The position numbers were made by a program. From a virus (taxonomy: Duplodnaviria > Heunggongvirae > Uroviricota > Caudoviricetes): a stretch of DNA of 64,000 bases. Each line of letters begins with the position of its first letter. Position 1 is the stretch's first letter. Where the stretch lies: IMG/VR virus record IMGVR_UViG_637000107_000010; one strand, written 5' to 3'. Below are positions 15,001-18,000 of this stretch, piece after piece.

Positions 15001-18000
15001 AACACGCCACATACCAGAGATTCGTTGTTGCCAAGATTGAGCGTATCCATGTTGACCTCATTTCCCCTTAACGCCGGGGTAGCGGAACAAAAACCTGCTG
15101 CATAGTTATTAAAGTTGAACCCTGCCGTCATGTTCTTACGCCTCGGGCTGGCTACTTAACCCCTGACCACTGCCTGGTAACTCGAAGTATTGCCCTGCAT
15201 TCTGTGGGGCGGGGTGAGGGAATGAATGAAGTTTAGAAAAACGAACATTTAAGGTCAATGTTTTTTTATCAAAACATTTTAAGCAGGCAGCTGTTACGCC
15301 ATCACTACGATGGCATACAGTTAATCAAATAGATGAGGTTGGTTAAATATCTTGTTGAATTTTAAAGCATACTCCCAATATGCAAGATAGATCATCCAGC
15401 ATAATTGAAGGGTAGCGAGGATTCGTGGGGACTAAAAGAATATCCGGCCCTTCTATCTCCAGTTTGCGAATGACAGGCGTTGTGGTCCCTTTGGGTAAGG
15501 CAAGGACAATATTTCCTGGTTGTACGATTCGATCGGGATCAACAAAAACTGTTGAACCATTTGGGATGGAAACTCCACCACCAGATGTCGACATACTGTC
15601 ACTCTCTAGAACAACAGCAAAGGTATTGGCCGGGATTTCTCCGACAAGCTGCACACAAGAGGTTATTGAGGAATTTTTCATATAATCACTCCAGCTTGCT
15701 GCCTGCTGAAGTGATAGTAGCGGAACCGTTTTTATCGGCGGTAAAGATAGATCAAGCGAATCACCTGTATTTAACTCTCCTCCATTAAGAAGCCAATTTT
15801 CGTTTACTTTCAATATCTTTGCCAGTGAACTTATGTAACGCGAGGACGGCGCTCCTCCACCGTTCATCCATTGACTTACGGAGCCTTTTGATGCGCCAGT
15901 GGCATTGACAAGGTCTTTGCCTTTCAAGTTTAGCGCATGCATACGTTGGGTTATGCGTTCAGATATTGTTTGCTTGTTCATGTTTTGATTTTAAAACACA
16001 GATGGTTTTGTTTCTTGACTTTCTTTGGTTTTGATTATTAAACTTTTGGCGTTCAGTTTTATGGAGCGACTCATGAAAAAATCAGAAGTATTAGGCTATT
16101 TTGGCGGAGTTGTTAAAACAGCCGCCGCTCTAGGAACGTCAAAAACCACAGTCAGCATGTGGGGGGAAGACGTTCCGTGGAAATGGGCGTTGCTAATTCA
16201 GGCAGTCACTGCCGGGGCGCTCAAATATGAGTTACACATACCGACGGTTGTCATTCCCGATTCTGATCATAATCCGCCTTCTAACCAAGGGGGGATTCAT
16301 GAAAATCAAGCATGAACACATCCGCATGGCGATGAATGCCTGGGCGCGTCCTGATGGCGAAAAAGTTCCGGCAGCTGGAATAACCCAGGCTTATTTTGAG
16401 TTGGGTATGACGTTTCCTGAACTGTACGACGACAGCCATCCGGAAGCCCTGGCTCGCAATACCCAGAAAATTTTCCGCTGGATAGAGAAAGACACCCCTG
16501 ATGCAGTTGAAAAAATGCAGGCTCTGTTACCGGCGATCGAAAAGGCAATGCCGCCTCTGCTGGTGGCCCGTATGCGCAGTCACAGCTCTGAATATTACCG
16601 TGAGATCGTCGAACGGAGGGATCGGCTGGTGAAAGATGTGGATGATTTTGTCGCAGCGGCGATCGCCTGGGGCACCCTGACTAACAGTGGGGGTCAGCCT
16701 GGTAATGCTGTTGTCGTGCATTGACCAACAATATTCATGCCGGATTTCTTCCGGATGTTCGAGGGTAAAGTTCGGTATCAGAAGAGGTGAGTATGGCTAA
16801 TGCCTGGCTCAGATTGTGGCATGACATGCCAAATGACCCCAAGTGGCGAACGATTGCCAGGGTATCAGGACAGCCAATCGCAACAGTGATGGCAGTGTAT
16901 ATCCATCTTCTGGTGAGCGCGTCACGAAATGTCACGACATGTCACGGCGTGTCACTACGTGGTCACATTGATGTCACGACGGAAGATTTAGCAAGTGCGC
17001 TTGATGTGACGGAAGACGTAATTGATTCAATTTTGCATGCAATGCAGGGGCGGGTTCTGGATGGTGACCTTATTTCCGGATGGGAAAAACGTCAGGTGCT
17101 GAAAGAGGACAATGGTAACGTTTCGCAAACGGCAAAATCCCCGGCAGAGCGCAAGAGAGCGCAGCGGGAGCGGGAAAAGCTGCGGAAACATAATGCTGAT
17201 TGTCACGATGAGTCACGACGTGTCACGCATCTGTCACGACAAGTCACGACAGATAAAGATACAGATAAAGATACAGATACAGAATTAAACCCCACACATA
17301 ACGCGCGCGAGAGTATTCCGACCAGTGAGTCGAATGGTGCGCCGTTGCAGACAGCCGAACCTGAATACCTGGACGGCNTGAGCGAACCGATCGGGAAATT
17401 TTCGATGACTACTGTCTGGCAGCCGTCGCCGGATTTTCGACAACGGGCAGCAGTGTGGGGTATGGCTCTGCCTGAGCCGGAATTTACACCTGCTGAGCTT
17501 GCCGCATTCCGGGATTACTGGATGGCGGAGGGGAAGGTTTTCACGCAGGTTCAGTGGGAGCAGAAATTTGCCCGCCACGTGCAGCACGTCAGGGCACAGG
17601 TAAAACCAGTCAGCAAGGGGGGAAGCCATGCAGCATCAGGTGGCACGGCATCACGGGCAGTTCAGGAAATCCGGGCTGCACGCGAACAGTGGGAACGTGA
17701 CAACGGATTTATCAGCAACGGAAACGGCCTGGAAGCTGTGGGAGCTCATGGGGGAGGTGTATTCGAACCGCTGGACTCAGAAGAACGGGGCCGCACCTTC
17801 GAAGCTCTGGATTGCCCAGATTGGTGCGATGACTGAACAGCAAATCCGTCTGGTGTGCCGTCAGTGCATGGACCGCTGCCGGGCGGGTGAAACGTGGCCC
17901 CCGGACCTGGCTGAGTTTGTTGCGCTGATTTCGGAGAGTGGGGCAAATCCATTTGGTCTTACGGTGGATGCCGTGATGGAAGAGTACCGGCGCTGGCGCA

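What the first reader, a model, noticed from the sequence alone, without database searches (positions are those of the whole stretch)
16919..17282. Iteron-type replication origin embedded in the initiator gene
Two arrays of GTCACG repeats with strict ~10-bp periodicity (six copies at 16919-16982, five at 17200-17250) lie inside the O-like ORF, followed by a 12-bp GATAAAGATACA tandem. This mirrors the lambda arrangement of ori iterons inside O plus an AT-rich flank, but with a different repeat unit, suggesting a distinct initiator-binding specificity.
Basis: seen in the sequence. Interest (0 to 1): 0.5.

Follow-up and report, generated by a model that had tools for sequence, protein, structure and literature searches.

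The report
Prophage replication origin inside initiator gene
Two clusters of the short DNA word GTCACG, spaced one helical turn apart inside a prophage replication-initiator gene and followed by an easily melted A/T-rich stretch, are conserved at the DNA level across many bacteria and are most likely the phage's replication origin, of a familiar design but in a family where no origin seems to have been described.

Summary
GTCACG (two copies degenerate) occurs 6 times at 16921-16978 and 5 times at 17202-17248, all on the + strand at 10-11 bp spacing. It is followed by (GATAMA)n at 17249-17296, the least stable duplex in 3.8 kb.

The host ORF (16793-17836) is not a lambda O homologue. It has a DnaD/replisome-organizer-like winged-helix N-domain, a disordered linker and a DnaT-like C-domain, and a lambda-P-like gene follows it.

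In 22 diverged homologues (host GC 34-69%) the cores sit at the same ORF offsets. Codon choice is almost fixed where codons overlap a core: modal-codon fraction 0.90 against 0.52 at other conserved columns, p = 3e-8. The repeat passes through all three reading frames, so the constraint is on DNA, not protein.

Other subfamilies carry GTAACG or CGAACGC at the same two places, always the same word in both arrays. The initiator is the only gene shared by all 20 loci compared.

Best reading: an iteron-type origin bound by the initiator's own N-domain, with an adjacent unwinding element. This matches the design of lambda ori, SPP1 oriL and pSK41 RepA_N. Its novelty is that of a new variant of a known kind. 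Interest is moderate.

The parts
16793..17836 (+). Replication initiator gene (347 aa): N-terminal winged-helix domain, disordered linker, C-terminal DnaT-like domain
   Evidence: ORF list. RefSeq CDS at the same position in a 99.9%-identical O157:H7 genome. PHROG 1408 'replication initiation protein', E 1e-118. Pfam DnaT PF17948 at aa 203-269.
16793..17197 (+). Coding sequence of the N-terminal domain (aa 1-135), the presumed iteron-binding module
16921..16978 (+). Iteron array 1: six direct copies of GTCACG (16921, 16931, 16941, 16951 GTCACT, 16962 GTCACA, 16973) inside the N-domain coding sequence (aa 43-62)
   Evidence: Four copies at the same ORF offsets (128, 138, 148, 159) in homologues from hosts of GC 34-69%. 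Codons fixed at overlapping columns: TCA 20/22, GTC 21/21, ACG 21/21, GGT 22/22, CAC 21/21. The encoded peptide is a low-confidence hairpin or loop between helices. The window has 21 bp (two copies, 7 codons) more than the family minimum.
17006..17011 (-). Single inverted copy of the core (GTGACG on the + strand), 33 bp after array 1
   Evidence: Conserved at ORF offset 192 (213 in the window type) in most GTCAC-type loci. Val72 is always the codon GTG, 18/18.
17202..17248 (+). Iteron array 2: five direct copies of GTCACG (17202, 17212, 17222, 17233, 17243) in the linker coding sequence (aa 137-152)
   Evidence: Three to four copies at offsets about 386-417 in diverged homologues. Codons fixed: CAC 20/20, TCA 22/22, GTC 22/22. 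Between close relatives the substitutions fall in the spacers, not the cores. The linker is predicted disordered.
17249..17296 (+). A/T-rich, A-skewed (GATAMA)n stretch directly after array 2: candidate DNA-unwinding element, also the joint between mosaic gene halves
   Evidence: GC 32.5% and AT skew +0.5. Least stable 40-bp duplex in 15300-19100: -43.8 kcal/mol against a mean of -57.5, sd 4.3. Across 36 loci the 40 bp after array 2 has mean GC 0.32 against a locus mean of 0.55 (Wilcoxon p 3e-10); in nearly all of them it lies in the lowest few percent of the ORF, and it stays at GC 0.23-0.35 in the GTCAC-type hosts of 60-69% GC. Codons GAT and AAA are fixed here, while other Asp columns prefer GAC. 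Copy number varies from 2 to about 9 hexamers among close relatives.
17384..17608 (+). Coding sequence of the DnaT-like single-strand-DNA-binding domain (aa 198-272)
   Evidence: Pfam PF17948 E 3e-17. NCBIfam DnaT E 1e-26. Foldseek to the DnaT84-153-ssDNA complex 4ou6: E 2e-5, TM 0.92, 57% identity.
17829..18290 (+). Lambda-P-like helicase-loader gene, overlapping the initiator stop by 8 nt
   Evidence: Pfam Phage_lambda_P PF06992 E 1e-15 and PHROG 109 'P-like helicase loader'. RefSeq CDS start.
15343..16724 (.). Upstream immunity and early region: cI-like repressor (15343-15981, -), cro-like gene (16073-16315, +), cII/YdaT-like gene (16299-16724, +). Rightward transcription from here crosses the origin.
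   Evidence: Pfam Peptidase_S24 plus HTH, and YdaT_toxin; PHROG CII-like activator. RefSeq annotation. A promoter-like site at 16015-16044 is a consensus match only.

Best explanation
The two GTCACG arrays and the adjoining (GATAMA)n stretch are most likely the replication origin of this lambdoid O157:H7 prophage, lying inside the gene of its own initiator.

Proposed mechanism:
1. After induction, rightward early transcription produces the initiator.
2. Its N-terminal winged-helix domain binds the 6-bp cores as a head-to-tail row of protomers on one face of the helix (10-11 bp pitch), at array 2 and probably also array 1. The two arrays are 229 bp apart, about 22 turns.
3. The resulting nucleoprotein complex destabilises the neighbouring A/T-rich stretch at 17249-17296.
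4. The C-terminal DnaT-like domain, attached through a flexible linker, holds the opened single strand and/or docks the P-like protein, which delivers host DnaB.

Shown here: the repeats exist and are not chance. They are under DNA-level selection independent of the protein. Their sequence changes together in both arrays between initiator subfamilies. The flank is the weakest duplex. The initiator is the only gene always linked to them.

Inferred: who binds the repeats, where melting occurs, and what the C-domain and P do.
For: - Clustering far beyond chance.
- Pitch of 10 bp (92 cases) or 11 bp (28 cases) in 171 sites from 22 loci, with only GTCACG conserved.
- The repeat passes through all three reading frames (offsets 128, 138, 148... 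from the ORF start), so the peptide is not repeated.
- Synonymous-site test: modal-codon fraction 0.90 in 16 core-overlapping conserved columns against 0.52 in 66 other conserved columns, Mann-Whitney p 3e-8. For 4- and 6-fold degenerate residues it is 0.89 against 0.42, p 7e-8.
- Same offsets in Entomomonas (34% GC) through Pseudothauera (69% GC).
- Subfamilies with GTAACG or CGAACGC at the same two places, with both arrays of a locus agreeing.
- A/T-rich flank: least stable duplex of 3.8 kb, conserved as the A/T-richest part of the ORF in nearly all of 36 loci.
- The initiator is the only ORF family present in 20 of 20 GTCAC-type loci; P-like is in 13 of 20 and cI-like in 8 of 20.
- Natural domain swaps: phages 813R8 and Tritos keep the N-domain and arrays with a different C-half and no P gene. 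Rac-SA53 keeps the C-half and P with a DUF1376 N-domain and has no GTCACG arrays.
- The N-domain fold resembles DnaD and RepA_N winged helices.
- Precedents for an origin inside the initiator gene: lambda and Stx phages (PMC7466680), SPP1 gene 38 (PMC6316719), pSK41 rep (PMC5703833).
- No significant RNA structure and no Rfam family.
Against: - There is no experimental evidence of binding, unwinding or origin activity for this or any family member in the material I could search.
- Some homologues with a well-conserved N-domain (L105, L113, L120-L123, L122, L131) have weak or no arrays, so arrays, at least array 1, are not obligatory for every member.
- The recognition helix and wing (aa 63-104) show no residues specific to iteron type, so the specificity determinant is not identified.
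- The arrays are physically inside or next to the N-domain coding sequence, so their co-inheritance with it is partly trivial.
- This prophage may be defective, so the origin may no longer fire.
Confidence: 0.75

Rival explanations
1. The arrays are binding sites for the initiator or another phage protein, but they serve regulation (autorepression, roadblock to transcription, copy-number control by handcuffing) rather than initiation. The true origin would lie elsewhere in the prophage.
For: - Iterons in plasmids do both jobs (general knowledge; PMC3401445 abstract).
- Array 1 lies 229 bp from the A/T-rich stretch and is missing in some homologues.
- SPP1 has a second origin copy far from gene 38 (PMC6316719).
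Against: - Array 2 directly abuts the most easily melted 40 bp of the whole immunity-replication region, and this pairing is conserved in nearly all of 36 loci. That is the signature of an origin core, not of an operator.
- No other GTCACG cluster exists in the 64-kb window.
- No promoter needs to be regulated there: only one weak minus-strand consensus match was found.
Confidence: 0.12
2. The repeats are a by-product of protein-level selection or of slippage in a low-complexity coding region, with no DNA-level function.
For: - The peptides they encode (SRNVTRGHxDVT, CHDESRxVT) are conserved in the family.
- The (GATAMA)n part changes copy number like a microsatellite.
Against: - A 10-11 bp period is not a multiple of 3, and the cores are read in all three frames.
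- Synonymous codons are almost fixed at core-overlapping columns but free elsewhere in the same sequences, p 3e-8. The fixed codons include TCA, GGT and GAT, which are minority codons at the other Ser, Gly and Asp columns of the same alignment, even in hosts of 60-69% GC.
- Array 2 lies in a predicted disordered linker whose only conserved residues are those encoded by the cores.
Confidence: 0.03
3. The conserved DNA words act at the RNA level (mRNA structure, translational control, small-RNA target), or they serve as homology patches that promote modular recombination between initiator genes.
For: - The mosaic joint between the two halves of this gene lies exactly at the (GATAMA)n stretch, which is shared by genes with unrelated N-domains such as Rac-SA53 ydaU.
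- Synonymous constraint alone cannot distinguish DNA from RNA function.
Against: - Folding of both arrays on either strand is no more stable than shuffles, z from -0.2 to +1.2, and there is no Rfam match.
- Direct repeats on a helical pitch are typical of protein binding to duplex DNA, not of RNA structure.
- A recombination role could explain the shared linker but not the subfamily-specific cores.
Confidence: 0.05

Closest known systems
Bacteriophage lambda ori within gene O (also Stx phages 933W and P27)
   Same: - The origin lies in the middle of the initiator gene, with iterons followed downstream by an A/T-rich tract (PMC7466680).
- The initiator gene is followed by a P-type helicase loader.
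- The module sits downstream of cI/cro/cII in a lambdoid early operon.
- The N-terminal (origin-specific) and C-terminal (loader-specific) halves recombine as modules at the linker.
   Different: - The initiator is not homologous to lambda O: there is no Phage_rep_O hit, and the fold is DnaD-like plus DnaT-like.
- Lambda has 4 iterons and Stx phages have 6, in one cluster (PMC7466680), each about 19 bp with internal symmetry (my own knowledge). Here there are 11 direct copies of a 6-bp core on a 10-11 bp pitch, split into two arrays 229 bp apart, one of them inside the DNA-binding domain's coding sequence.
pSK41-type RepA_N plasmid initiators of Firmicutes
   Same: - Three-part initiator: an N-terminal winged-helix, DnaD-like domain binds repeat boxes located centrally within its own gene. 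The ori-encoded central part is a linker. The C-terminal domain is a swappable host-interface module (PMC5703833).
   Different: - No sequence-level membership was shown: Pfam RepA_N is not hit.
- The element is a Gram-negative phage, not a Gram-positive plasmid.
- The C-domain is DnaT-like, not the DnaG-binding helical bundle.
- There is an extra array inside the N-domain coding sequence, and the repeat units are shorter.
SPP1 G38P 'replisome organizer' and oriL inside gene 38
   Same: - The origin-binding protein binds direct repeats next to an A/T-rich unwinding element located within its own gene, and is followed by a helicase-loader gene (PMC6316719).
- PHROG 'replisome organizer' and TIGR01714 give weak hits to the N-domain.
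   Different: - The TIGR01714 score of 18 bits is far below its 49.8-bit cut-off.
- SPP1 has a second origin copy (oriR) elsewhere. No second GTCACG cluster exists in this window.
- The helicase loader and C-domain are different.
Rac prophage YdaU/YdaV module and oriJ
   Same: The C-terminal half (DnaT-like domain), the P-like gene and the (GATAMA)n linker are 86-88% identical to Rac-SA53 ydaU/ydaV. Rac is reported to have an active origin, oriJ (PMC3945230).
   Different: Rac YdaU has a DUF1376 N-domain and no GTCACG arrays. It has a TGTTCAAACA/TGTTTGAACA pair at the equivalent place. I found no sequence-level description of oriJ to compare.

Membership tests
Lambda-type origin (ori-lambda in gene O) | Initiator is a homologue of lambda O (Pfam Phage_rep_O N-terminal domain) | tested here: not met
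   Pfam scan at E <= 0.01 returns only DnaT PF17948 for the 347-aa protein. Fold matches are DnaD, RepA_N and DnaT.
Lambda-type origin (ori-lambda in gene O) | Iterons inside the initiator ORF, with an A/T-rich tract on their downstream side | tested here: met
   Arrays at 16921-16978 and 17202-17248 lie inside ORF 16793-17836. The A/T-rich, least stable stretch at 17249-17296 follows.
Lambda-type origin (ori-lambda in gene O) | Iterons of about 19 bp with internal dyad symmetry, each bound by an O dimer | tested here: not met
   Only a 6-bp core is conserved. Flanks are near random, the pitch is 10-11 bp and all copies are direct. Dimer binding is not testable here.
Lambda-type origin (ori-lambda in gene O) | P-type helicase loader encoded immediately downstream | tested here: met
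   PF06992 E 1e-15 for 17628/17829-18290. Present in only 13 of 20 related loci.
Iteron-type origin (general) | Several same-orientation repeats on a helical pitch, conserved as DNA, next to an unwinding element and linked in cis to the initiator gene | tested here: met
Iteron-type origin (general) | The cognate initiator binds the repeats and the segment supports autonomous replication | not testable with these tools
   Needs EMSA or footprinting and a plasmid replication assay. The only support here is indirect: both arrays change word together between subfamilies.
DnaD-like / replisome-organizer / RepA_N initiators with an intragenic origin | N-terminal winged-helix domain of the DnaD/RepA_N/phage_rep_org_N type | tested here: inconclusive
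DnaD-like / replisome-organizer / RepA_N initiators with an intragenic origin | Repeat boxes lie in the part of the gene that encodes a linker between the DNA-binding and C-terminal domains | tested here: met
   Array 2 and (GATAMA)n encode aa 137-168. pLDDT is below 50 for residues 144-197. Array 1, however, lies inside the N-domain coding sequence.
DnaD-like / replisome-organizer / RepA_N initiators with an intragenic origin | C-terminal domain is an exchangeable host- or loader-interface module | tested here: met
   The same N-half plus arrays occurs with an unrelated C-half in 813R8 and Tritos. The same C-half plus P occurs with a DUF1376 N-half in Rac-SA53. C-termini vary across the family.

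The most novel reading that the evidence does not exclude
Array 1 lies inside the coding sequence of the DNA-binding domain. Together with a basic helix next to array 2, the peptide it encodes (aa 43-62) is where the N-domain differs between the GTCACG, GTAACG and CGAACGC classes. The helix-turn-helix and wing (aa 63-104) carry no class-specific residues.

The most novel reading not excluded is that site and reader are physically coupled. A change in the iteron word would at the same time rewrite a DNA-contacting segment of the protein that reads it. That would give a short mutational path to new origin specificities and incompatibility classes among co-resident prophages.
Probability: 0.1. 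Interest if true: 0.75.

Novelty: new variant of a known kind. Interest (0 to 1): 0.45.

Why it matters
- The origin-bearing segment (16900-17300) is found in 2129 of 5426 complete E. coli genomes, with up to five copies per genome. Homologues occur in prophages of many Gamma- and Betaproteobacteria. None of the 24 phage records with this N-domain, nor RefSeq, annotates an origin there.
- Knowing the origin and its specificity classes would help predict which co-resident prophages of pathogens such as O157:H7 can cross-activate, compete or be incompatible.
- It gives a natural series of three related iteron words for studying how initiator specificity evolves.
- It offers small, self-contained replicons (initiator with an internal origin) for vector building.
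- It is also a clean example of overlapping protein and DNA codes that gene-level annotation misses.

Tried and rejected
- DnaA boxes: none within 16793-17400, and the window count is no higher than chance. A DnaA-box-containing origin is therefore not supported.
- RNA structure: not better than shuffles on either strand. Rfam gives no relevant family.
- Promoter and terminator scans: counts near expectation, nothing convincing inside the origin.
- Literature searches: searching TGTCACG/GTCACG with iteron or origin terms, the Eru replication types of Stx phages (PMC8044961, which has no iteron or DnaT content), replisome-organizer terms and oriJ gave no description of this origin. The library covers open-access papers only.
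- PDB sequence search with the family profile: only a marginal DnaT hit.
- Looking for class-specific residues in the recognition helix and wing: none found.
- UPGMA of the masked N-domain: iteron classes are not clean clades, so a simple 'one clade, one word' picture is rejected.
- The long 220-aa P ORF overlapping the initiator by 209 nt is probably not the real start. RefSeq uses 17829.
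Full report
**1. What is in the sequence**

Reading 16500-18600 shows two runs of GTCACG.
- Array 1: GTCACG at 16921, 16931, 16941 and 16973, with degenerate copies GTCACT at 16951 and GTCACA at 16962.
- Array 2: GTCACG at 17202, 17212, 17222, 17233 and 17243.

All copies are on the + strand, with start-to-start spacings of 10,10,10,11,11 and 10,10,11,10 bp. Array 2 runs straight into ACAGATAAAGAT x2.9 at 17249-17283.

Nine of the 40 GTCACG hits in the 64-kb window (both strands) fall in these two clusters. In 300 Markov-1 simulations of the window, the largest same-strand cluster within 65 bp was 1-3 for GTCACG (3 only once), against 5 observed. For GTCAC it was 2-3, against 6 observed.

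**2. Gene context**

The arrays lie in ORF 16793-17836 (347 aa).
- Pfam finds only a DnaT DNA-binding domain at aa 203-269.
- PHROGs call the protein a replication initiation protein, with weaker DnaD-like and replisome-organizer hits to the N-terminal 170 residues.
- The next gene is lambda-P-like (PF06992). Upstream are a cI-like repressor, a cro-like gene and a cII/YdaT-like gene.
- The segment is 99.9% identical to many E. coli O157:H7 chromosomes. There RefSeq annotates the same CDS as 'DnaT-like ssDNA-binding domain-containing protein', followed by 'replication protein P' starting at window position 17829, inside a lambdoid prophage. No origin is annotated.

The gene is 'O-like' by position and role, not by homology.

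**3. Structure of the protein**

AlphaFold2 with a 75-sequence alignment gives three parts.
- A helical N-domain: helices 4-14, 16-25, 29-45, 63-70 and 74-84, then a beta wing at 85-95.
- A disordered linker, with pLDDT below 50 for residues 144-197.
- A confident C-domain.

The peptide encoded by array 1 (aa 43-62) is a low-confidence hairpin or loop between helix 29-45 and helix 63-70. Array 2 and the GATAMA repeat encode the start of the disordered linker.

**4. Is the repeat a DNA feature or a protein feature?**

A search with the N-terminal 166 residues found 1028 protein clusters. A scan of one genome per species returned 49 loci from Gamma- and Betaproteobacteria and a few others.

In about 24 loci, from hosts ranging from 34% GC (Entomomonas) to 69% GC (Pseudothauera), GTCAC sits at the same ORF offsets:
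- about 128, 138, 148 and 159;
- about 386-388, 397, 407 and 417;
- an inverted copy at 192.

The remaining roughly 4-5 kb of each locus holds only 1-10 copies on both strands. Because the pitch is 10-11 bp, the cores are read in all three frames and the peptide is not repetitive.

The test was a codon-level alignment of 22 diverged GTCAC-type genes. Conserved amino-acid columns overlapping a core use one codon almost exclusively:

| Residue | Codon | Count |
|---|---|---|
| Ser44 | TCA | 20/22 |
| Val47 | GTC | 21/21 |
| Thr48 | ACG | 21/21 |
| Gly57 | GGT | 22/22 |
| His58 | CAC | 21/21 |
| Val61 | GTC | 21/21 |
| Val72 | GTG | 18/18 |
| His138 | CAC | 20/20 |
| Ser148 | TCA | 22/22 |
| Val151 | GTC | 22/22 |

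Equally conserved columns elsewhere in the same sequences use codons freely. The mean modal-codon fraction is 0.90 against 0.52 (Mann-Whitney p 3e-8). For four- and six-fold degenerate residues it is 0.89 against 0.42 (p 7e-8). The control columns share the same phylogeny, so relatedness does not explain the difference. The constraint is therefore on the nucleotide sequence.

Between close relatives, substitutions fall in the spacers and not in the cores.

**5. Co-variation**

Other subfamilies of the same N-domain carry a different word at the same two places:
- CGAACGC in L112, L114-L117, L119, L124-L126, L128 and L129;
- GTAACG in L086, L108, L109 and L118.

In every locus the two arrays agree with each other. 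The three words are related (nnnACG), and all are spaced mostly 10-11 bp apart. A concerted change of two separated arrays is what is expected of sites read by one protein whose specificity has shifted.

Among 20 GTCAC-type loci, the initiator is the only ORF family present in all. P-like proteins occur in 13 and cI-like in 8.

Natural domain swaps point the same way. Phages 813R8, Evi and Tritos have the same N-half and arrays joined to an unrelated C-half, with no P gene. Rac-SA53 has the same C-half and P gene joined to a DUF1376 N-domain, and it has no GTCACG arrays. The joint lies at the GATAMA stretch.

**6. The flank**

The stretch 17249-17289 is the least stable 40-bp duplex in the whole immunity-replication region 15300-19100, intergenic operators included: -43.8 kcal/mol against a mean of -57.5, sd 4.3. 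Its GC is 32.5%, with a strong A-over-T skew.

Across 36 loci of all three classes, the 40 bp after array 2 has mean GC 0.32 against a locus mean of 0.55 (Wilcoxon p 3e-10). It is within the lowest few percent of the ORF in nearly all of them, and in the GTCAC-type hosts of 60-69% GC it stays at GC 0.23-0.35. It usually begins AGATAAAGATAAAG. Asp and Lys codons here are fixed as GAT and AAA, whereas other Asp columns prefer GAC.

This is the expected behaviour of a DNA-unwinding element placed next to initiator sites. The number of hexamers varies from 2 to about 9 among close relatives.

**7. Mechanism proposed**

Shown:
- two arrays of protein-independent, helically phased, subfamily-specific DNA words;
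- an adjacent conserved weak duplex;
- exclusive linkage to the initiator gene.

Inferred:
- the winged-helix N-domain binds the cores as a head-to-tail row on one face of the helix;
- the complex melts 17249-17296;
- the DnaT-like C-domain, on a flexible tether, captures single-stranded DNA and/or the P-like loader, which brings in DnaB;
- rightward early transcription crosses the origin, as in lambda.

There are no DnaA boxes in the origin. What array 1 contributes is open: it could be an auxiliary site, a looping partner 22 helical turns away, or a regulatory site.

**8. Rivals**

- *RNA-level function.* Unsupported: folding z-scores run from -0.2 to +1.2, and there is no Rfam hit.
- *Purely regulatory sites with the origin elsewhere.* Cannot be excluded without experiments. 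It does not explain the conserved pairing of array 2 with the weakest duplex, and no second cluster exists in the window.
- *Recombination-joint function of the shared GATAMA stretch.* Compatible with the origin reading, not an alternative to it.

**9. Comparison with known systems**

The design matches three known systems.
- Lambda and Stx-phage ori inside gene O: iterons followed by an A/T-rich tract (PMC7466680).
- SPP1 oriL inside gene 38 of the replisome organizer (PMC6316719).
- pSK41 RepA_N initiators, the closest match. A DnaD-like winged-helix N-domain binds Rep boxes located centrally in its own gene, the ori-encoded part is a linker, and the C-domain is a host-interface module (PMC5703833).

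The differences from all three are:
- a 6-bp core on a 10-11 bp pitch;
- two arrays 229 bp apart, one of them inside the coding sequence of the DNA-binding domain;
- a DnaT-like C-domain paired with a P-like loader.

**10. Novelty and limits**

I found no paper describing this origin. No phage record (24 with this N-domain) or RefSeq record annotates one. The literature library is open-access only, so an older description cannot be ruled out.

The element is common: the 401-bp origin segment occurs in 2129 of 5426 complete E. coli genomes, with up to five copies per genome.

Some homologues lack clear arrays. The residues that set iteron specificity are not identified. The only class-specific protein differences are the iteron-encoded peptide itself, a basic helix at aa 107-128 and positions 30-31. 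There are none in the helix-turn-helix or wing. That leaves open the speculative idea that site and reader are coupled through array 1.

**Verdict.** The feature is real and functional at the DNA level. It is a new variant of a well-known kind of origin, of moderate interest, and it awaits binding and replication assays.

Noticed in passing
window 17379 (also ORF 20804-21034): An ambiguous base 'n' lies inside the initiator ORF and gives an X in the protein. More n's occur a few kb downstream, so the window comes from a record with uncalled bases.
   Followed up: no
window 17628-18290 vs 17829-18290: The mechanical ORF list gives a 220-aa P-like ORF that overlaps the initiator gene by 209 nt. 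RefSeq starts P at 17829 (8-nt overlap). PHROG 15931 (482 aa) models both genes as one protein, suggesting that some phage records fuse or mis-frame them.
   Followed up: partly
window ~17253-17285: A mosaic joint lies inside the initiator gene at the (GATAMA)n linker. The left half is 83-84% identical to phages 813R8, Evi and Tritos. The right half is 86-88% identical to Rac-SA53 ydaU/ydaV and the PPompW prophages.
   Followed up: yes
L048 and L055 (IMG/VR), array 2: A 10-bp duplication of one iteron unit (CAAGTCACGA) adds a sixth copy and shifts the reading frame of the initiator. In-frame copy-number changes seen elsewhere are 21 bp, that is two units or 7 codons.
   Followed up: partly
L122 (Serratia MAG) and L131 (Pantoea), initiator homologues: These have the same conserved N-domain but no arrays. 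After about residue 105 an unrelated inserted domain follows, with a weak sub-threshold MUG113/T5orf172-like Pfam hit.
   Followed up: partly
L003 2443-2477 (Rac-SA53 ydaU): The DUF1376-type initiator of Rac-SA53 has a pair of 10-bp palindromic words, TGTTCAAACA and TGTTTGAACA, just upstream of the same GATACA linker. This may be its own initiator sites (oriJ-type origin?).
   Followed up: no
window 17384-17608: The phage C-domain is 57% identical to the ssDNA-binding domain of the host primosomal protein DnaT (4ou6). This is unusually close for a phage-host pair and suggests recent exchange in one direction or the other.
   Followed up: no
window 16900-17300 vs E. coli genomes and plasmids: The origin segment occurs in 39% of complete E. 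coli genomes, with up to 5 copies per genome (3 in O157:H7 TR01). It also occurs in 8 PLSDB plasmid records, two of which are 4.8-4.9 Mb and so are probably chromosomes. Several co-resident prophages may therefore share one origin specificity.
   Followed up: partly
window 16299-16724: The cII-position gene matches Pfam YdaT_toxin as well as the PHROG 'CII-like transcriptional activator', so two annotations with very different implications apply to the same protein.
   Followed up: no
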